Positions 2,499 through 9,971 are shown, numbered from the stretch's first letter. The stretch: 64,000 nt of DNA from an uncultured Rhodobacteraceae bacterium (GCA_947500135.1 CANMQX010000004.1:411442-475441); one strand, 5' to 3'. Numbers and translations are program-made. The notes: generated from the letters alone by a model not told the origin.

Positions 2499-2527
2499 TT
2501 GATTTAATTCCATGATGGAATGAAAAT
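2499..2527 (+). promoter_or_regulatory. Putative sigma70-type promoter with a palindromic operator in its spacer
   Basis: TTGATT (2499-2504), 17 bp, then GAAAAT. The spacer holds the perfect inverted repeat ATTCCAT-G-ATGGAAT (2507-2521). Confidence 0.4.
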
Positions 2528-2553: not shown

Positions 2554-3825
2554 ATGAAATCGATTCGTATTGCTTTGGGGGCAATGGTGCTGGGCGCGGG
2601 TATGGCGCAGGCGCAGGATACGACACTGACATTTATGTCGTGGGACCCCGACCAGCTGGAGGTCGAAAAGGAGGCGATTGCCGCTTTTGAGGCCGCCAAT
2701 CCCGGCGTCACCGTTGAGGCAACCGCCATGCCGCCCAAGGACTACTGGCCGCGTCTGTCAGCGCTTGCCGCGTCCGGGGATTTGCCCGATGTCTTTATGA
2801 TGTCGTCGGGTTTCGTCAAGGAATGGGCGGCGGCTGGCAACCTTAAGGACCTGTCTGGCGTTGTTTCGGACGACCAATTGGCAGGCTACTATGAAGGCGC
2901 CGCATCGGTTGGCGTGATCAACGATCAGCGTGTGGCGTTCCCGCAAAACTGGGTCGCACCGGTCCTGTATTACAATATTGATATGTTCGAGGCCGCAGGG
3001 GTCGAGACCCCGCAGCCGGATTGGACATGGGATGATTTCCTGAATGCTGCCAAGGCGCTGACCATTGATGAGGATGGCGACGGCGATGCCGAAACCTATG
3101 GCATGTCGCTTTATGGTCGTTACGCCCATATCGAACCTTGGGTGTTCCGCAATGGTGGCCGTTACCTGAACGCGGATGAAACGGCGCTGGAACTGAACGA
3201 CGAGGCCGTCAACGCGCTGCAATTCCTGACTGATCTGGTGAATGTCCATGGGGTGGCCCCGCAGCCGCAGGAAATGGAAGGCGTCCGCCAGCAGGATATC
3301 ATGCCGCTGGGCATGGCTGCGATGTGGGTCGATGGGTCCTGGAACATCGCCAATACCCGGTCGATTGTCGGCGATGATTTCCGTTGGGGGATTGCGCAGG
3401 TGCCGCTGGGCCCTGATGCGACGCCGGACAATGCTGCCGCCTATGCTTGGGCGGATATGTTGTCTGTCGGTGCGGGCAGCGATAATCCCGATCTGGCCTG
3501 GGCCTTTATCCAGCATATGGTGGGTGAGGGGCGGCAAGCCTCTGATTTCCTTGGTGGCAAGGTGCCTGCCTATATCGATATTGCCACGTCAGAGGCTTGG
3601 CTGGAGGCCGATCAGATGCCCGCCAATAAGGGTCTTCTTCTCGATATCGGGGCGCAGAATGTCTATACCGGGTTTTCCAAAAACTGGAGCGGGTGGCGCG
3701 GATACGATTCGACCGGATCATCAGGCATGAATGGTGAGTTGGATGAGGTGCTGAACGGGCGCAAGTCACTTGATGATGCCATTGAGGCGCTTGTCATCTA
3801 CGGTAACGATATCCTGTCACGCTAA
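2554..3825 (+). CDS. Carbohydrate ABC transporter (CUT1) extracellular solute-binding protein
   Basis: Signal peptide, LSALAASGDLPDVF and WVDGSW motifs, GGAGG RBS at 2541-2545, permeases downstream. Confidence 0.9.
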   Translation: MKSIRIALGAMVLGAGMAQAQDTTLTFMSWDPDQLEVEKEAIAAFEAANPGVTVEATAMPPKDYWPRLSALAASGDLPDVFMMSSGFVKEWAAAGNLKDLSGVVSDDQLAGYYEGAASVGVINDQRVAFPQNWVAPVLYYNIDMFEAAGVETPQPDWTWDDFLNAAKALTIDEDGDGDAETYGMSLYGRYAHIEPWVFRNGGRYLNADETALELNDEAVNALQFLTDLVNVHGVAPQPQEMEGVRQQDIMPLGMAAMWVDGSWNIANTRSIVGDDFRWGIAQVPLGPDATPDNAAAYAWADMLSVGAGSDNPDLAWAFIQHMVGEGRQASDFLGGKVPAYIDIATSEAWLEADQMPANKGLLLDIGAQNVYTGFSKNWSGWRGYDSTGSSGMNGELDEVLNGRKSLDDAIEALVIYGNDILSR

Positions 3826-3900
3826 GCTGTCCCAGAATTGGGCCGGGTGTGCCATGATTTTCCCGGCCCGTCATTTGACCGCCAGTAAGGGCGCCCCACC

Positions 3901-4779
3901 ATGCGCAGCAATCGCAAAATCCGGATCACGGCGCTGTTGTTTCTCGCGCCGACCATCATTGGTCTGCTGGTGTTCCGGCTGATCCCGATCGGCTGGTCCT
4001 TTGCCCTGTCATTTTATGACTGGAAGATTTTTGACACCCCGCAATTCGTGGGTCTGGGCAATTATGCGCATATCTTTACCTCGCCCACGGCGCATAAAGT
4101 GTTCCTGAATTCGGCATATTTTTCGGCGATCTATGTGCCGGGGTCCATCGCATTGGCGCTGGTTCTGGCGGTGTTGCTGAATAACGGGCTGCGCAGTTCG
4201 GCGTTTTTCCGGGGCGCGTTCTTTTTGCCCTATATCACCTCGACCGTGGCAGTCACCCTGGCCTGGCGCTGGATTTTTTCAACCAAGTTCGGGCTGTTGA
4301 ACAATGCGTTGGACTGGGTTGGCGTGGACAATCCGCCCGCCTGGCTGGCGGACCCGATGTGGGCCTTGCCTGCCGTGGCGCTGGTGTCGATCTGGAAGGA
4401 TGTGGGATTTTACATGATCCTGTTGTTGGCCGGATTGCAAACCATTGATCCCACCTTGTACGAGGCCGCACGGGTGGACGGGGCCAAGCCGGTGCAGCGG
4501 TTTTTCAAGATCACCGTGCCGATGCTGTCGCGTAGCCTGTTTTTCGTGCTGATCCTGGCCCTTGTCCGGTCCACCCAGACGTTTGAGATCACCTATGCCC
4601 TGACCAATGGCGGGCCAAATCGGGCATCAACCACATTGGCGTTTTATGTCTATCAAAACGCCTTTGTGGAGTTCGAGATGGGCTATGCCGCAGCCCTGTC
4701 CTACATCATGTGTTTCATTCTTGGCCTGCTGACACTGACGAATTTCTATTTCCGCAAGAGGTGGGTGCATGAAGACTGA
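3901..4779 (+). CDS. Carbohydrate ABC transporter permease
   Basis: Multiple TM segments and the EAA loop LYEAARVDGA. Confidence 0.92.
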   Translation: MRSNRKIRITALLFLAPTIIGLLVFRLIPIGWSFALSFYDWKIFDTPQFVGLGNYAHIFTSPTAHKVFLNSAYFSAIYVPGSIALALVLAVLLNNGLRSSAFFRGAFFLPYITSTVAVTLAWRWIFSTKFGLLNNALDWVGVDNPPAWLADPMWALPAVALVSIWKDVGFYMILLLAGLQTIDPTLYEAARVDGAKPVQRFFKITVPMLSRSLFFVLILALVRSTQTFEITYALTNGGPNRASTTLAFYVYQNAFVEFEMGYAAALSYIMCFILGLLTLTNFYFRKRWVHED

Positions 4780-5632
4780 CATCCATCCAAACAGAGGCAC
4801 CGCCCGGGGCACATTATTCGCCCTTTATGCGGTGCTGATCGCCTATGCGCTGATCACCCTGATGCCGTTCATCTGGATGCTGGTCACCAGCTTTAAAGAG
4901 GCGCGCGATGTGTTCAAACTGCCGCCCAGCTTTGTCCCGACCAAGCTGTTTACCGATGAGCCGTTTGGAAATTACACTGAGATCTGGACCCAGCGGGATT
5001 TTGTGATCTTCTTTCGCAACTCTGCCTTCGTGTCCTTTATGGCCGCCATCGGGCAGGTTTTTGCCACCTCGCTGGCGGGCTATGCCTTTGCCCGGCTCGA
5101 TCTGCCCGGCAAGAACTGGTTGTTTGCGCTCGTGCTGGTCACCGCCTTTGTGCCGGTTGAGGTCACCATCATCCCCGAATTTCTGATCATGCGCGGTCTG
5201 GGCTGGATCGATACCTTCCTGCCACTTATCGTGCCGTCATTCCTGGTTGGGGCCTTTGGTACTTTCATGCTGCGGGAATACTTTGGCAGCCTGCCGAAGG
5301 ATTACGGCGATGCCGCCTATGTGGACGGGGCGACACCATTTCAAATCTTTTGGAAAGTCTATCTGCCGCTGGCGCAGCCTGCGTTGGTGTCGATCTTTGT
5401 CATCGCTTTCATCAATAACTGGGACGAGTTATTGCGCCCCTTGCTGTTCCTGAACTCCGATGAGTTGAAGACCGTGCCATTGGGCCTGATGTCATTTGTC
5501 AGCCAGTATGAGGCGTCGTGGACATTGTTGATGGCAGGTTCTGTCATTTCGACATTGCCATTGATCGTGATTTACATGCTGACGCAACGCTATGTCCTGC
5601 AAGGGTTTGTCGGCGGCGGGGTAAAGGGGTGA
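4769..5632 (+). CDS. Carbohydrate ABC transporter permease
   Basis: TM segments, EAA-like DAAYVDGA, AFINNWDE and W..LMAGSVIS.LP motifs. Confidence 0.92.
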   Translation: MKTDIHPNRGTARGTLFALYAVLIAYALITLMPFIWMLVTSFKEARDVFKLPPSFVPTKLFTDEPFGNYTEIWTQRDFVIFFRNSAFVSFMAAIGQVFATSLAGYAFARLDLPGKNWLFALVLVTAFVPVEVTIIPEFLIMRGLGWIDTFLPLIVPSFLVGAFGTFMLREYFGSLPKDYGDAAYVDGATPFQIFWKVYLPLAQPALVSIFVIAFINNWDELLRPLLFLNSDELKTVPLGLMSFVSQYEASWTLLMAGSVISTLPLIVIYMLTQRYVLQGFVGGGVKG

Positions 5633-6750
5633 TGCTGATGCAAACACCGCCTGCGATGACGGATAACCAGCGCGCTGTTCTGGGCGCGGTTTTGGCCGTG
5701 CCGGATCAGCAACGGCTGGAATTGAGCATCGGATTGGGCCTGTCCGCCCAGACAATCATGCGCGCGGTACTGCCCCTGATCGACAGTGGCGTGTTGTTGG
5801 AACGGACGGAACCTGCAGCAGGGCGGGGTAAACCGGCGCGCAGTTTGCGTTTCTCCCCCGGCACCCTTGCGACATTGGGGATCAGTGTTGCGTCTGACCA
5901 TATCCGGGTCAGCTGCAGCGATCTGGCCGGGGTGAAGCTGTTGACCGCCAAGCGCGCCCGCGCTTACGAGACCGCTGTTGCGCAACTGGTCGATCTGGAT
6001 GAGCTGGTTGCTGCAGTGATGGACGGTTTGCCTGACAGTGCCGTTCTGGTTGGTGCAGGTGTGTCGGTGCAGGGTTATCTGCTGGATGGTGGTAAGCGCA
6101 TTCTGGCGCGTGTCGATCCGGCTGGTTGGGCAGCCATTGATCTGGCCGCCCGGTTGCGGGACCAGTTGGGCCTGCCCGTGCATCTGATGAATGATGGGAA
6201 AACGCTGGCTTCCAGCCTGATCCGCACCGCACCCGAGCCGAATTTTCTATGCGTGCATCTGGGCACTGGGGTTGGCGGTGGTTTGGTCAGCAATGGCATG
6301 CTTGTCGCCGGGGCGAATGGGAACGCGGGCGAGATTGGCCAGTTTTTTCCCCATGGCCCTGACCGGCCGGTTGAACAGACCTTCCAACGCGCGGCTGGTC
6401 TGAAGGACTGGTCCGGCTGGAACGGTATTGCCGCATTGCCTGCCGCAGATCAGGATTGTTTGACTGCAAGGCTGGAAAGTGCCGGTGCGATGATCGGTGA
6501 TGTTCTGGCACAGGCGCTTGCCTTGCTTGATTTCCAGGCCGCTTACATCTGTTCGCGCATGCCTGCTGACCTGTTGCAGGCCCTGGTGGCGCAGATCGAT
6601 GTCATGCCCTTGGGCCAAGACCTTGCCGGTGCCGGGCCTGATCAGACCAACCCGCCCCCCGCGGTGCATGCATGCCACGTCCCCAATCACGCCAACCTTG
6701 CCTGCCGTATGGCAGCCGAGGCGTTTCTGTCGCCGACTGCCCCTTGCTGA
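5632..6750 (+). CDS. ROK family transcriptional regulator
   Basis: N-terminal winged HTH, GRGKP, and the ROK signature LGTGVGGGLV..G..GNAGEIG. Start overlaps the permease stop (TGATG). Confidence 0.85.
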   Translation: MLMQTPPAMTDNQRAVLGAVLAVPDQQRLELSIGLGLSAQTIMRAVLPLIDSGVLLERTEPAAGRGKPARSLRFSPGTLATLGISVASDHIRVSCSDLAGVKLLTAKRARAYETAVAQLVDLDELVAAVMDGLPDSAVLVGAGVSVQGYLLDGGKRILARVDPAGWAAIDLAARLRDQLGLPVHLMNDGKTLASSLIRTAPEPNFLCVHLGTGVGGGLVSNGMLVAGANGNAGEIGQFFPHGPDRPVEQTFQRAAGLKDWSGWNGIAALPAADQDCLTARLESAGAMIGDVLAQALALLDFQAAYICSRMPADLLQALVAQIDVMPLGQDLAGAGPDQTNPPPAVHACHVPNHANLACRMAAEAFLSPTAPC

Positions 6751-6760
6751 AAGACTGCCC

Positions 6761-7861
6761 ATGGCCACTTTGCAACTTGATCAAATCACGAAATCCTTTG
6801 GCCAGACCGAGGTACTGCACGACATTTCCCTGACGGTGGAGGATGGCGAATTTATCGTTTTTGTCGGCCCGTCTGGCTGTGGCAAATCCACGTTGCTGCG
6901 GATCATTGCCGGGCTGGATGACCAGACATCGGGCGCATTGCATATCGGTGGCGAGGAGGTCACAGGCCGTGAACCGATTGAGCGTGGCGTGGCGATGGTG
7001 TTTCAATCCTACGCGCTTTACCCGCATCTGACCGTGTTCGAAAACATCGCCTTCCCCTTGCGTTTGCAAAAGCTGCCAAAGGCTGACGTCAACAGCCGCG
7101 TTGAAGCAGCGGCGCAAACACTGGATCTGATGGACCGGTTGCAGCACAAGCCCAGCCAGCTATCGGGCGGTCAGCGTCAGCGGGTCGCGATTGGCCGTGC
7201 CATTGTGCGTGATCCAAAGCTGTTTTTGTTTGATGAACCCTTGTCCAACCTTGACGCATCCTTGCGCGGTGCGATGCGGGTCGAATTGTCGGAACTACAT
7301 CAGAAACTGCGCACGACCATGGTTTACGTTACTCATGATCAGGTCGAGGCGATGACCATGGCCAACCGTATTGTTGTGCTCAATGGCGGCGTTTTGGAAC
7401 AGTTCGGCACGCCGATGGAACTGTATCACAAGCCGCGCACCCGCTTTGTGGCGGGTTTTATCGGGCAGCCGGGGATGAATTTTTTTAGGGCGACACTGTC
7501 AGAGGTCACCGATACCGGTGTCACGGCCATCGCGTCTGATCAATCCAATCTGACCGCCCATGTTGATGGTGCAGGCCGTAGCGTTGGTGCAGCGGTGGAA
7601 CTGGGCATTCGCCCCGATGACCTGCAACTCAGCACGACTGGCGACGGGCTACAGGTGGCGGTCCGCGTCATCGAACGGTTGGGCGCCAGCACGATCATGT
7701 ATGGCAACCTGCATGATGGCACGGCGATTTGTGCCGCCTTGGACGGGCTTGCCCGCCTATCACCCGGCGATACCGTGCATCTGACCGTTGATCCGGACAC
7801 CGTCCATGTTTTTGACGCCGGCGGTCTGGCCCTGCCACGCCGCACCGCCCCCGATCTGTAG
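6761..7861 (+). CDS. Sugar ABC transporter ATP-binding protein (MalK/UgpC-like)
   Basis: Walker [37 protein letters not shown]. Confidence 0.95.
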   Translation: MATLQLDQITKSFGQTEVLHDISLTVEDGEFIVFVGPSGCGKSTLLRIIAGLDDQTSGALHIGGEEVTGREPIERGVAMVFQSYALYPHLTVFENIAFPLRLQKLPKADVNSRVEAAAQTLDLMDRLQHKPSQLSGGQRQRVAIGRAIVRDPKLFLFDEPLSNLDASLRGAMRVELSELHQKLRTTMVYVTHDQVEAMTMANRIVVLNGGVLEQFGTPMELYHKPRTRFVAGFIGQPGMNFFRATLSEVTDTGVTAIASDQSNLTAHVDGAGRSVGAAVELGIRPDDLQLSTTGDGLQVAVRVIERLGASTIMYGNLHDGTAICAALDGLARLSPGDTVHLTVDPDTVHVFDAGGLALPRRTAPDL

Positions 7862-7870
7862 GAGAGCATC

Positions 7871-9040
7871 ATGCGGATCGTCGTTGCAGGAGTAGGCAAG
7901 CGCAGTATCAAGGTATTGGCGTATCTTCGTGCGGCCATGCCAGAGATGCAGATTGTGGGATATGTCGACCCCAGCCCGCGCCTTGTGCCTGCGTTGGAAG
8001 AGCCGGACCCGATCCCCGCCTATGACAGTGTGGACAAGATGCTGGCAGAGACAAAGGCCGGGCTTTTATTTGTGGGTAGCCCCAATCATTTGCATCTGGG
8101 TCATATCGCGGCTGGTTTGCGGGCGGGTGTTCGCGTGTTTTCAGAGAAACCGATTGTCACAACCCATGATCAAACATGGGCGCTTGCAGATCTTTTGGCT
8201 GAATACGGCACTGACCGGCTGATCATCGGGCTTGTCCTACGCTATGCCCCGCAGATGAAAGACCTGCGTCGCGCGCTGGATGCGGGCCAATTGGGCAAGA
8301 TCGTGTCGCTTGAGGCGAATGAACATATTGAGCCGCAGCATGGCGGTTTTTTCATGCGCGATTGGCGGCGCTACACCGCCTATTCCGGTGGTTTCATGCT
8401 GGAAAAATGCTGTCACGATATTGATCTGTTTCATATGATCACCGGATCGCGCCCACAAAGGGTGGCCAGTTTTGGTGGTAGACGCACCTTTACCCCCGAA
8501 AACGCGCCAACCCGAAATTCGGATATAGCGTTGTTTCACCAGATCCCATCACTATGGGAAACCACCGATGATCCGTTCCGGTCGGATGCCGATATTATTG
8601 ACCACCAGACAGCCATTCTGTCATTTGAAAACGGTGTGACGATGAGCTTTCATACAAATATCAACACCCCCGACCAAAGCCGCCATTTCTGTGTGATCGG
8701 GACGCGGGGCATGGCCGAAGGTGATCTGCATCGGGGCTATCTGCGGGTGACGGCGGCACAGACGGCGGAACGATTATTGGATGTTGATTATACACAGGAC
8801 CCGGATTTGCAGATCGACCATTACGGATCTGACCGGCAGATGACCCGCGAATTGGCCGCTTATCTGCGCGGCGATATCACAGACCTGCCTGTGTCGGTGG
8901 TCGATGGGATCGAGGCTGGATTGTCTGCCATGGCGCTGGATCAGGCGCGCACCACCGGGCAGATCGTCGACCTAACGCAGATATGGGCGCGGCTTGACGC
9001 CTACGGCCTGCGCAACCCGGTCCCCGCCCATGCAGTTTGA
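7871..9040 (+). CDS. Gfo/Idh/MocA family oxidoreductase
   Basis: N-terminal Rossmann fold, SPNHLH, FSEKP and GGFMLEKCCHDID. Confidence 0.9.
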   Translation: MRIVVAGVGKRSIKVLAYLRAAMPEMQIVGYVDPSPRLVPALEEPDPIPAYDSVDKMLAETKAGLLFVGSPNHLHLGHIAAGLRAGVRVFSEKPIVTTHDQTWALADLLAEYGTDRLIIGLVLRYAPQMKDLRRALDAGQLGKIVSLEANEHIEPQHGGFFMRDWRRYTAYSGGFMLEKCCHDIDLFHMITGSRPQRVASFGGRRTFTPENAPTRNSDIALFHQIPSLWETTDDPFRSDADIIDHQTAILSFENGVTMSFHTNINTPDQSRHFCVIGTRGMAEGDLHRGYLRVTAAQTAERLLDVDYTQDPDLQIDHYGSDRQMTRELAAYLRGDITDLPVSVVDGIEAGLSAMALDQARTTGQIVDLTQIWARLDAYGLRNPVPAHAV

Positions 9041-9971
9041 GGCGTTTTCCCATCCCAAGGCGCGCGACTTATCCGTGCCTGCCGATGATGTGTTGTTGCA
9101 TATCCCGGGTCGCGTGACGGCGGTTTTTGACGGGGCGACCGATACACATGGGCGCCGTAAGAATGGCGTGCCGATGGGGCGATTGGCGGCACTGACCGCC
9201 GCGCAGGCCTTGGCCGGATTTCCTGCTGATGCCGCCAACTGGGATGCAAAGGATATCTTGCAACGGTTGACCGCCGCGATATCTGCGGCTGCCCCGCATG
9301 ACGGGGTGGGTCGCCCGGCATCGACCACCGCAATGATCGCGTTTGAGACCCCCGACGCGCTGCGAATGGTCGGGCTTGGCGACACCGGATACCGGGTCAA
9401 TGCAGGCCCCGCCCAGATTACTGAACTGGCCCCTGATGATGTGACAATCCCGGCGCGTGTGGCCCTGTTCAAGATGTTGCTAGCTGCAGGTCTGCCCACC
9501 GATCGGTGCGAAATCCGGGCTGGCAGCGTGGTTGGGGGCGGTTTGGATGCGGCGCTGGCGGCTGGTGACATCAACCCAGGCCAGGCCGACGCAATTCTGG
9601 AGGTGGCCATCGCAGCACGACCTGACGCCGCAAAAGAGGTTGAGGCATTCCTGCGCAGCGGTCTGCAGCATCAGCATCGGTTTGCCAATATGTCCGATCA
9701 TCCGCTTGGCTATGGGGTTCTGGATGGTTCCAGCCCCGATCCGGCGTTCATTGTGGACTCAGAGATCGCTCGCGACGGCTTGACGTCGTTGGAGTTGTTT
9801 TCCGATGGCTACATGGTCTTGCCAGCGGCACCGACTATTGCTGCATGGGAGGCCAGCCATGCACAGACCGAGGTTGCCGACCCCCATAAGATCGGGATCG
9901 CACCTGCGGTCAAAGGATCCACGGAGAGTGCGTTTTTTGATGACCGGACTGTCGTTATCCTGCGGGCTTAG
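9030..9971 (+). CDS. PP2C/PPM-fold metal-dependent phosphatase-like protein, substrate unknown
   Basis: PPM motifs in order: DD, VFDG, STT, GD, LFSDG and DDRT. Start overlaps the end of the oxidoreductase gene. Confidence 0.7.
   Translation: MQFEAFSHPKARDLSVPADDVLLHIPGRVTAVFDGATDTHGRRKNGVPMGRLAALTAAQALAGFPADAANWDAKDILQRLTAAISAAAPHDGVGRPASTTAMIAFETPDALRMVGLGDTGYRVNAGPAQITELAPDDVTIPARVALFKMLLAAGLPTDRCEIRAGSVVGGGLDAALAAGDINPGQADAILEVAIAARPDAAKEVEAFLRSGLQHQHRFANMSDHPLGYGVLDGSSPDPAFIVDSEIARDGLTSLELFSDGYMVLPAAPTIAAWEASHAQTEVADPHKIGIAPAVKGSTESAFFDDRTVVILRA

What the first reader, a model, noticed from the sequence alone, without database searches (positions are those of the whole stretch)
2554..9971. 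Accessory sugar-uptake operon ending in a PP2C-fold phosphatase: possible undescribed sugar-phosphate catabolic system
Seen: a tightly linked run of binding protein, two permeases, ROK regulator, ATPase, Gfo/Idh/MocA oxidoreductase and a 313-aa protein with PPM motifs (VFDG, STT, GD, SDG, DDRT). The operon has no glycoside hydrolase, sugar kinase or Ser/Thr kinase. Established: PPM/PP2C enzymes are usually protein phosphatases paired with kinases or anti-sigma systems. Inference: here it may act on a small molecule, either dephosphorylating an imported sugar-phosphate before NAD-dependent oxidation or acting on the oxidised product. A role in regulating transport by dephosphorylation is an alternative.
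Basis: partly seen in the sequence, partly recalled or inferred. Interest (0 to 1): 0.6.

Follow-up and report, generated by a model that had tools for sequence, protein, structure and literature searches.

The report
PP2C-fold enzyme ending sugar-import operon
The last gene of this sugar-uptake operon encodes a protein with the fold and metal site of a PP2C protein phosphatase, from an uncharacterised family that in other bacteria nearly always sits behind an importer of phosphorylated sugars, so it probably dephosphorylates an imported sugar rather than a protein.

Summary
A tight + strand operon at 2554-9971 encodes a binding protein, two permeases, a ROK regulator, a MalK/UgpC-type ATPase, a Gfo/Idh/MocA enzyme and a 313-aa protein ("PP2CL").

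PP2CL falls below Pfam's threshold (PP2C_2, E 0.0026). Its model (pLDDT 95.8) nevertheless matches bacterial PP2Cs (tPphA Z 20.7), and all metal-binding Asp motifs are conserved. A helical insert of roughly 85-100 residues replaces the flap.

Gene neighbourhoods give the main result:
- Of 61 homologue loci with enough flank, 48 show binding protein, ATPase, fused permease, then PP2CL.
- That binding protein is AfuA-like. AfuA binds sugar phosphates, and the phosphate-site residues are kept here.
- 37 loci have a ROK gene nearby.
- About 17 of 80 loci carry amino-sugar catabolic genes (AgaS, NagK-like, NagA, NagB, KbaZ), some in one operon with PP2CL.
- The Gfo link is rare (4 of 80) but arose at least twice.
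- Eight of ten other PP2CL genomes have no Hanks kinase.

Best reading, at about 0.5: a small-molecule phosphatase acting on a sugar or amino-sugar phosphate. The substrate is unknown and nothing has been assayed. The Gfo enzyme is closest to GH188 NAD-dependent glycosidases but lacks their sulfonate site.

The parts
2506..2522 (.). Candidate operator: palindrome AATTCCA-TGA-TGGAAT about 30 nt upstream of the binding-protein start codon
   Evidence: TTCCANNNTGGAA occurs once in the 64-kb window, against 0.10 expected. The orthologous operon in L061 has ATTTCA-TCG-TGAAAT at the same position, L061:4544-4558. Only two instances exist, and binding by the ROK protein is inferred.
2554..3825 (+). 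Periplasmic solute-binding protein of a CUT1-type carbohydrate ABC importer
   Evidence: Pfam SBP_bac_1 E 5e-34. Best PDB relatives are oligosaccharide binders such as Lmo0181 and AraN; UgpB matches only weakly. Start and signal-like N-terminus are seen.
3901..4779 (+). ABC permease 1 (UgpA/MalF-like)
   Evidence: BPD_transp_1. Best NCBIfam hit is UgpA, far below its cut-off.
4769..5632 (+). ABC permease 2 (UgpE/MalG-like)
   Evidence: BPD_transp_1. Best NCBIfam hit is UgpE, far below its cut-off.
5632..6750 (+). ROK-family transcriptional regulator (wHTH plus ROK domain), inside the operon
   Evidence: Pfam ROK E 7.5e-17, with NagC/Mlc among the NCBIfam hits. The start at ATG 5632 overlaps the permease stop. 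No CxCGxxGC zinc motif and a degenerate DxGxT stretch (read by eye).
6761..7861 (+). ABC ATPase with C-terminal TOBE/OB regulatory domain (MalK/UgpC type)
   Evidence: ABC_tran, TOBE_2 and OB_MalK. UgpC subfamily model 461 bits against a cut-off of 432. Start codon seen.
7871..9040 (+). Gfo/Idh/MocA NAD-dependent enzyme, GH188-like
   Evidence: Three Gfo/Idh/MocA Pfam domains. Best PDB sequence hits are GH188 SqgA: 8qc2 E 5e-18, 8qc3 E 3e-16. The model (pLDDT 87.4) is closest to six GH188 entries, Z 35.4-36.6 at 22-23% identity, ahead of levoglucosan dehydrogenase at Z 33.5. It keeps EKP, E-K-C-C-H and HYG but lacks SqgA Arg166, Lys172 and Tyr136.
9030..9971 (+). PP2CL: 313-aa cytoplasmic PP2C-fold protein with a helical insert of about 85-100 residues; predicted metal-dependent phosphohydrolase
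   Evidence: AF2 pLDDT 95.8, pTM 0.92. Foldseek finds Stp1, PstP and tPphA at probability 1.0, E 2e-9. VIA gives Z 20.7, rmsd 2.5 A, 185 residues aligned to tPphA. Conserved motifs appear. Family size is given.

Best explanation
The operon is a ROK-controlled ABC import system for a carbohydrate derivative. Its last gene, PP2CL, is a cytoplasmic PP2C-fold enzyme dependent on Mn2+ or Mg2+. It most likely hydrolyses a phosphate monoester on the imported small molecule or its first breakdown product, a phosphorylated sugar and probably an amino-sugar derivative. It probably does not act on a phosphoprotein.

Proposed course (each step is inferred from family assignments; none was assayed):
1. The ROK repressor is released by the sugar.
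2. The binding protein, two permeases and the MalK/UgpC-type ATPase import the substrate.
3. The GH188-like Gfo enzyme either cleaves a glycosidic bond through transient NAD-dependent oxidation or oxidises the sugar.
4. PP2CL removes a phosphate using a two- or three-metal centre built from D19/D20, D34-G35, D118, D259 and D304/D305.
5. A helical cap of about 85-100 residues stands where protein-directed PP2Cs have their flap. Family-specific invariant residues (D38, R143, E274, D284, R306, near-invariant K10, Q215, N220, K295) would form a closed pocket for a small substrate.

In most other bacteria the same enzyme follows an AfuABC-type sugar-phosphate importer. In Rhizobiales it heads an operon that continues with a HexNAc kinase, deacetylase and deaminases. 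That order suggests a phosphate at a position other than C6 is removed before the sugar is rephosphorylated at C6.
For: Fold and active site:
- Confident model with strong matches to PP2C structures.
- All five PPM acidic motifs align to canonical PP2Cs and are invariant or nearly so.

Importer linkage:
- Of 61 homologue loci with at least 6 kb upstream, 48 have SBP, ATPase, fused permease, then PP2CL on one strand. 54 have these importer genes within 9 kb, and 37 have a ROK gene within 8 kb.
- This holds across Alpha-, Beta- and Gammaproteobacteria and 'delta' MAGs.

Phosphorylated substrate:
- The linked binding protein is closest to AfuA, which binds G6P, F6P and S7P (E 2e-48), and to the PLP binder P5PA.
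- It keeps their phosphate-site residues: S89, S190-G191-S192, S226/S227. The ring-binding His205 is replaced by an invariant Glu (PMC4546632, PMC8427247).

The importer type was swapped while PP2CL was kept:
- The window clade uses CUT1 plus Gfo.
- L014 (Gfo-perm-perm-SBP-ATPase-NagB-PP2CL) is nested inside an Afu-linked clade.
- A 28%-identical paralogue follows a CehA/McbA metallohydrolase and a MalK-type ATPase, beside CUT1 genes 62-77% identical to the window's.

Amino-sugar link:
- SIS/AgaS, NagK-like kinase, NagA, NagB and KbaZ lie within 10 kb in about 17 of 80 loci.
- In L049 they form one tight operon with PP2CL.

No kinase partner:
- No kinase is conserved nearby.
- Eight of ten other PP2CL genomes have no PF00069 hit.
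- In the window's own genome the three canonical PP2C genes each lie within about 0.4-2.5 kb of a Ser/Thr kinase gene, and PP2CL does not.

Small-molecule enzyme partner: a distant relative is fused to a NUDIX domain, and NUDIX genes lie in four Rhizobiales clusters.
Against: - No enzymatic or genetic data exist for any member, and no paper linking PP2C to such operons was found.
- All characterised PPM enzymes known to me act on phosphoproteins (my own knowledge).
- The usual phosphate-binding Arg, four residues before the ED motif, is absent. Only a near-invariant Lys (K10) lies upstream.
- The window's own binding protein resembles oligosaccharide binders, with no demonstrated phosphate site.
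- An imported sugar 6-phosphate would need no phosphatase.
- I could not inspect the model's coordinates, so the claim that the insert caps the active site rests on topology alone.
- The own genome has four Hanks kinases.
- The 80 loci come from a scan seeded on one motif, and many are related, so the counts are not independent.
Confidence: 0.5

Rival explanations
1. PP2CL is a regulatory protein phosphatase. It would dephosphorylate a component of the uptake system: the TOBE domain of the ATPase, the ROK regulator, or an HPr/NPr-type carrier phosphorylated on serine. Transport or induction would be tuned in this way.
For: The fold and catalytic motifs are those of protein phosphatases. Its constant partners are ABC importers with MalK/PotA-type ATPases that carry regulatory TOBE domains, together with a ROK regulator. 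The own genome has Hanks kinases. From my own knowledge, a PP2C (PrpC) dephosphorylates HPr(Ser-P) in Mycoplasma.
Against: No kinase gene is conserved near any locus. Eight of ten PP2CL genomes lack PF00069 altogether. The genome's canonical PP2Cs are kinase-linked and PP2CL is not. ROK is missing near 24 of 61 loci while the importer stays. The flap is replaced by a large, family-specific insert with invariant polar residues. In Rhizobiales the gene sits inside a run of catabolic enzymes.
Confidence: 0.2
2. PP2CL is a small-molecule hydrolase with other chemistry or another purpose. One option is a diesterase, pyrophosphatase or sulfatase acting on a sugar phosphodiester, nucleotide sugar or sugar sulfate. 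Another is a safety valve that destroys the inducer or a toxic intermediate, HexNAc-6-P or HexN-6-P, rather than performing a committed catabolic step.
For: Links to NUDIX: a fusion in P0138 and a neighbouring gene in four loci. A paralogue lies next to a CehA/McbA (PHP-type) metallohydrolase. NagC/Mlc-like regulators respond to amino-sugar phosphates (my own knowledge). The canonical phosphate-binding Arg is missing, and an invariant R306 sits next to the metal ligands. The AfuA-type anion pocket could in principle take other anions.
Against: The metal-ligand set is that of PPM monoesterases. The partner binding protein keeps the residues that hold a phosphate monoester in AfuA and P5PA. I know of no precedent for sulfatase or diesterase chemistry in this fold (my own knowledge).
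Confidence: 0.2
3. PP2CL is a catalytically inert PP2C-like ligand sensor or adaptor, as TAB1 is.
For: Pseudophosphatases occur in this fold; TAB1 is among the structural matches.
Against: Every metal-binding Asp is invariant across a family of more than 1,000 representatives. That is not expected of an inactive protein.
Confidence: 0.03

Closest known systems
Bacterial PPM/PP2C Ser/Thr phosphatases (tPphA, PstP, Stp1, MspP)
   Same: Same beta-sandwich core: Z 19.4-20.7, rmsd 2.5-4.4 A, 185-203 residues aligned. Same acidic motifs: ED/DD, DG, GD[ST], DG, DD-T.
   Different: Only 12-18% identity, and below Pfam's threshold. An insert of about 85-100 residues in six helices stands in place of the flap. 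No Arg at the usual phosphate-binding position. Further invariant residues: D38, R143, E274, D284, R306. Not paired with a kinase; it lies in import and catabolic operons instead.
AfuABC sugar-phosphate importer and P5PAB PLP importer of Actinobacillus (PMC4546632, PMC8427247)
   Same: The importer that precedes PP2CL in 48 of 61 loci has the same three-part layout: SBP, TOBE-type ATPase and fused double permease. Its SBP matches AfuA at E 2e-48 and keeps the Ser/Gly/Ser(Thr) phosphate site, Asp206 and mostly Glu229.
   Different: His205, which is essential for G6P binding, is an invariant Glu here. The published afu and p5p operons, as described, carry no phosphatase ('phosphatase' does not occur in either paper), and neither passage read mentions a ROK regulator. 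The window itself has no such importer; it uses a CUT1 system.
GH188 NAD+-dependent sulfoquinovosidases (SqgA; PMC10755693, PMC12780224)
   Same: The window's Gfo enzyme is closest to them by sequence and by fold (Z 35.4-36.6, 22-23% identity). It keeps Lys107 (EKP), Glu189 and His193 (EKCCH), and probably His321 (HYG).
   Different: The sulfonate-binding Arg166 and Lys172, and Tyr136, are not kept. Identity is far below the 54% cut-off used for SqgA (PMC12780224). No sulfoquinovose catabolic genes lie nearby. It could equally be a plain dehydrogenase.
Amino-sugar catabolism (NagK/NagA/NagB and AgaS/KbaZ) under NagC/Mlc-type ROK control
   Same: About 17 of 80 PP2CL loci carry these genes. The linked regulators score best against Mlc and NagC.
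   Different: As I know the described nag and aga systems, they use PTS or permeases and contain no PP2C-fold gene (my own knowledge). The window's operon has no nag or aga gene; the genome's AgaS- and NagA-like genes lie about 390 kb away.

Membership tests
PPM / PP2C phosphatase superfamily | PP2C fold: central beta-sandwich flanked by helices | tested here: met
   AF2 model pLDDT 95.8. Foldseek probability 1.0, E 2e-9 to Stp1, PstP and tPphA. VIA Z 20.7, rmsd 2.5 A over 185 residues of tPphA.
PPM / PP2C phosphatase superfamily | Conserved acidic metal ligands in motifs I (ED), II (DG), GDS, VIII (DG) and XI (DN/DD) | tested here: met
   D20 is nearly invariant. D34, G35, D118, D259, G260, D304 and D305 are invariant in 38 sequences. 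They align with NED, DGMGG, GDSR, TDG and DDRT of PstP and of the genome's own PP2Cs. The single hhalign runs have low probability, but the motifs coincide.
PPM / PP2C phosphatase superfamily | Phosphate-binding Arg a few residues before motif I (Arg33 of human PP2C-alpha, per PMC1821046) | tested here: inconclusive
   No Arg lies 3-5 residues before D19/D20. A near-invariant Lys (K10) lies 9-10 residues before them. Whether it is structurally equivalent could not be checked without coordinates.
PPM / PP2C phosphatase superfamily | Passes a curated sequence model (Pfam PP2C, PP2C_2 or SpoIIE) | tested here: not met
   PP2C_2 17.8 bits against a cut-off of 24, and no other family. No NCBIfam model matches. 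A few relatives do pass in the precomputed data.
PPM / PP2C phosphatase superfamily | Metal-dependent phosphoprotein phosphatase activity | not testable with these tools
   Needs an enzyme assay.
Kinase-paired bacterial Ser/Thr phosphatase (Stp/PstP type) | A cognate Hanks kinase in the genome, usually adjacent | tested here: not met
   No kinase cluster among conserved neighbours. Eight of ten PP2CL genomes have no PF00069 match. In the own genome the canonical PP2Cs are kinase-adjacent and PP2CL is not.
GH188 NAD-dependent sulfoquinovosidase (for the Gfo gene) | Sulfonate-binding Arg166 and Lys172, and Tyr136 (ArSqgA numbering) | tested here: not met
   In the phmmer alignment to 8qc3 they are replaced by Ile, Phe and Leu.
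GH188 NAD-dependent sulfoquinovosidase (for the Gfo gene) | Catalytic Lys107, Glu189, His193 and His321 | tested here: inconclusive
   EKP and EKCCH align and are invariant in 34 homologues. An invariant HYG at residues 317-319 is at the right distance for His321 but was not aligned by phmmer.
CUT1 carbohydrate ABC importer (window transporter) | SBP_bac_1 binding protein, two MalF/MalG-type permeases and a MalK/UgpC ATPase with a TOBE domain | tested here: met
ROK transcriptional regulator | N-terminal wHTH plus ROK domain; ROK zinc motif CxCGxxGC | tested here: inconclusive
   The ROK domain matches at E 7.5e-17. The wHTH-like N-terminus was read by eye. No Cys motif occurs in the expected region, so this is a divergent member.

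The most novel reading that the evidence does not exclude
PP2CL would be the first branch of the PP2C/PPM fold devoted to a small-molecule substrate. It would be a phosphatase for a sugar or amino-sugar phosphate that completes an 'import the phosphoester, strip it, rephosphorylate at C6' route fed by AfuABC-type or CUT1 importers. In the window it would be paired with a GH188-like NAD-dependent glycosidase specific for a sugar other than sulfoquinovose.
Probability: 0.35. Interest if true: 0.75.

Novelty: new variant of a known kind. Interest (0 to 1): 0.62.

Why it matters
PPM/PP2C enzymes are treated as protein phosphatases, and genome annotation names them so by default. This family has more than 1,000 representatives at 50% identity. 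If it acts on sugar phosphates, several things follow:
- It would widen the known chemistry of the fold.
- It would correct the annotation of these genes.
- It would point to the unknown ligand of a widespread AfuA-like importer in soil and marine Proteobacteria.
- It would add a step to amino-sugar and organophosphate turnover.

The hypothesis is cheap to test, because the proteins are small and soluble-looking and have culturable hosts such as Oceanicola granulosus, Agrobacterium and Neorhizobium.

Tried and rejected
- Sequence-only assignment: Pfam and NCBIfam give nothing above threshold for PP2CL, and phmmer finds nothing in the PDB.
The contexts of the metagenomic members of the window clade, of the shorter (about 270 aa) relatives and of the fused forms could therefore not be examined.
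- The search for longer, fused forms found none (weak evidence). The fusions cited come from the representative search.
- Literature searches linking PP2C to ROK/ABC operons, aga genes or non-protein substrates found nothing relevant.
- Earlier notes of this scan hold nothing on this protein. The ESM Atlas returned only unnamed PP2C_2-tagged clusters.
- Sulfoquinovosidase reading of the Gfo gene: rejected, because the sulfonate-site residues are absent.
- 6-phosphogluconolactonase reading of the Glucosamine_iso neighbours: rejected. The nagB model scores 229-263 bits and the pgl model 60-78 bits.
- The idea that L061 carries a displaced paralogue: dropped. It is a long branch within the window clade.
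- Promoter and terminator scans inside the operon gave no more than chance.
- The N-terminal extension of P0167 and P0190 looks like an HD domain by eye, but Pfam finds nothing. I make no claim about it.

Full report
**Observation**

The region 2554-9971 holds seven + strand genes with gaps of 76 nt or less, or with overlaps.

| Coordinates | Gene | Evidence |
|---|---|---|
| 2554-3825 | SBP_bac_1 binding protein | ATG behind GGAGG, signal-like N-terminus |
| 3901-4779, 4769-5632 | two BPD_transp_1 permeases | |
| 5632-6750 | ROK protein | its ATG overlaps the permease stop |
| 6761-7861 | MalK/UgpC-type ATPase with TOBE domain | |
| 7871-9040 | Gfo/Idh/MocA protein | |
| 9030-9971 | 313-aa ORF ("PP2CL") | ends against convergent pheA |

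dabA lies upstream, after a 305-nt gap. Most are invariant in homologues.

**The last gene has a PP2C fold**

Sequence models barely see it. PP2C_2 scores E 0.0026, below the gathering score. A profile of 38 homologues reaches PstP only at E 0.002.

The AlphaFold model built on that alignment is very confident: pLDDT 95.8, pTM 0.92. It matches bacterial PP2Cs at Foldseek probability 1.0. VIA gives Z 20.7 and rmsd 2.5 A over 185 of tPphA's 240 residues.

The acidic motifs that bind the metals in PPM enzymes are conserved and align with canonical PP2Cs:
- DD/ED at residues 19-20
- FDGATD at 33-38
- GD[ST]G at 117-120
- SDGY at 258-261
- DDRT at 304-307

About 110-125 residues do not align with the PP2C core. 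Six predicted helices, roughly residues 136-218, lie just after the GD strand, where bacterial PP2Cs carry the flap. That topology comes from my own knowledge. Shorter relatives of about 270 aa lack part of this insert.

The usual Arg before motif I is missing. A near-invariant Lys lies further upstream.

The family is sizeable and unnamed:
- 1,867 representatives at E 1e-3 or better, 192 at 1e-30 or better.
- No NCBIfam model.
- Source names are 'hypothetical' or 'PP2C domain-containing'.

**Neighbourhoods**

A motif-seeded scan of one genome per species found 239 relatives, and 80 loci were fetched. I called ORFs, clustered them and used tblastn.

Of the 61 loci with at least 6 kb upstream:
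- 48 have binding protein, ATPase, fused double permease (about 555 aa), then PP2CL on one strand.
- 54 have these importer genes within 9 kb.
- 37 have a ROK gene within 8 kb, usually divergent.
- No kinase cluster appears.

Only 4 of the 80 loci have a Gfo homologue. The arrangement occurs in Rhodobacterales, Rhizobiales, Rhodospirillales-like lineages, Comamonadaceae, Vibrio, Photobacterium and 'delta' MAGs. Five loci have other contexts.

These counts have limits. The scan used a single motif, many loci are related, and ORF calling in high-GC DNA is noisy.

**The usual importer is AfuABC-like**

Its binding protein scores below cut-off on the PhnS2 model. It is closest in the PDB to 8x1a (deposited as an iron(III)-compound binding protein; E 1e-48), to AfuA (4r72-75, E 2e-48) and to P5PA (E 4e-41). 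AfuA binds G6P, F6P and S7P, and P5PA binds PLP. In both, the phosphate is held by Ser/Thr37, Ser-Gly-Thr148-150 and Ser183/184 (PMC4546632, PMC8427247).

In the PP2CL-linked proteins the aligned residues are S89, S190-G191-S192 and S226/S227, all invariant or nearly so. Asp206 is kept. The ring-binding His205 is an invariant Glu.

The partner importer is therefore best read as an organophosphate importer with a different ring specificity. An acidic residue at that site would suit an amino group, but that is speculation.

**Amino-sugar link**

In about 17 of 80 loci, amino-sugar genes lie within 10 kb.
- NCBIfam places the Glucosamine_iso neighbours with NagB. L010 scores 263 bits against a cut-off of 237, while the pgl model gives only 60-78 bits.
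- GatZ/KbaZ scores above its cut-off.
- The SIS, kinase and deacetylase genes score near or below the AgaS, NagK and NagA cut-offs.

L049 shows the fullest case. On the + strand, with overlapping junctions, it runs: SBP, ATPase, permease, PP2CL, AgaS-like, NagK-like kinase, NagA-like, NagB-like, NUDIX, KbaZ. A divergent ROK regulator sits upstream. The importer is the only transporter in that operon, and a HexNAc kinase follows the phosphatase-like gene.

This fits import of a HexNAc phosphate esterified somewhere other than O6, dephosphorylation, and then rephosphorylation at O6. The pathway order is inferred.

**The window's variant**

The window clade (WIN, L001, L061 and metagenomic proteins) pairs PP2CL with a CUT1 importer, ROK and Gfo.

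Two further cases show PP2CL kept while the front end changed:
- L014 has Gfo-perm-perm-SBP-ATPase-NagB-PP2CL. Its PP2CL is nested inside an Afu-linked Rhodobacterales clade, with 69% identity to L026.
- In the same genome, a 28%-identical paralogue (hhalign probability 99.7%) follows a CehA/McbA PHP-type metallohydrolase and a MalK-type ATPase. It is divergent from CUT1 genes 62-77% identical to the window's.

In L010 an Afu-PP2CL operon faces a NagB-ATPase-perm-perm-Gfo operon. The transporter class is thus interchangeable and PP2CL is the constant. This argues for a role tied to what is imported.

The own genome has no Afu-like importer. Its AgaS- and NagA-like genes lie about 390 kb away on the same contig.

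**Kinase test**

The own genome has four PF00069 hits and three canonical PP2C_2 genes. Each canonical PP2C lies within about 0.4-2.5 kb of a kinase, and PP2CL does not. Eight of ten other PP2CL-bearing genomes have no PF00069 match at all. The completeness of those genomes was not reported.

**The Gfo enzyme**

Its best PDB sequence hits are GH188 NAD-dependent sulfoquinovosidases (8qc2, E 5e-18), then inositol dehydrogenases.

Its model (pLDDT 87.4) is closest to six GH188 entries, at Z 35.4-36.6 and 22-23% identity. Levoglucosan dehydrogenase follows at Z 33.5, then RgNanOx and YjhC.

It keeps EKP, the EKCCH motif (Glu189, His193) and an invariant HYG that may correspond to His321. It lacks Arg166, Lys172 and Tyr136. 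It is therefore not a sulfoquinovosidase. It may be an NAD-dependent glycosidase for another sugar, or an ordinary dehydrogenase.

Its family is far larger than PP2CL's, with at least 2,486 hits at E 1e-30 or better.

**Distribution**

In a sample of one genome for each of 200 other genera of the same family, six carry PP2CL.

**Verdict**

The small-molecule, sugar-phosphate reading is the best supported at about 0.5 and is now more specific. PP2CL is the conserved terminal gene of organophosphate-type import operons under ROK control and is often joined to amino-sugar catabolism.

A regulatory protein-phosphatase role (0.2) and other hydrolytic chemistry or a safety-valve role (0.2) remain open. 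The substrate is unknown and nothing has been assayed.

No paper describing this family or arrangement was found in the library searched.

Noticed in passing
window:2506-2522 and L061:4544-4558: A palindrome, AATTCCA-TGA-TGGAAT, lies just upstream of the binding-protein gene. The orthologous Aliiroseovarius operon has ATTTCA-TCG-TGAAAT at the same place. It is a candidate operator for the in-operon ROK regulator.
   Followed up: partly
window:5632-6750: The ROK protein has no CxCGxxGC zinc motif. The region reads GNAGEIGQFFPHG without cysteines, and the DxGxT ATP motif is degenerate. It is a divergent ROK regulator encoded in the middle of the operon rather than divergently, as in most related loci.
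   Followed up: no
L103:7210-10423 (second locus in the genome of L014): A distant PP2CL paralogue (28% identity, DDM instead of DDR) follows a CehA/McbA PHP-type metallohydrolase and a MalK-type ATPase. It lies next to CUT1 genes 62-77% identical to the window's.
   Followed up: partly
P0138, P0167, P0190 (representative library): These are fused forms of distant relatives. P0138 joins PP2CL to a C-terminal NUDIX domain (611 aa). P0167 and P0190 carry an N-terminal extension of about 240 aa with no Pfam match and an HD-like motif seen only by eye.
   Followed up: partly
L005:2433-9358 and L015: In 'delta' MAGs some PP2CL genes follow Opp-type ATPases, a class-V aminotransferase, a DHDPS/NanA-family protein, a Sulfotransfer_5 protein and an SRAP protein instead of the Afu-like importer.
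   Followed up: no
window:9968-9971: The stop codons of PP2CL (+ strand) and pheA (- strand) overlap, so the two convergent genes share 4 nt and have no intergenic terminator.
   Followed up: no
window:12-2234: A DabA-type inorganic-carbon transporter subunit (Pfam E 1e-246) lies directly upstream. A GC-rich hairpin at 2259-2294 lies between it and the operon.
   Followed up: no
G000:C2:25530-27079, C3:13336-16955, C7:217120-218817: The genome has three pairs of a canonical PP2C_2 gene and a Hanks-type kinase gene, plus a fourth kinase at C7:82820 with no PP2C found beside it.
   Followed up: no
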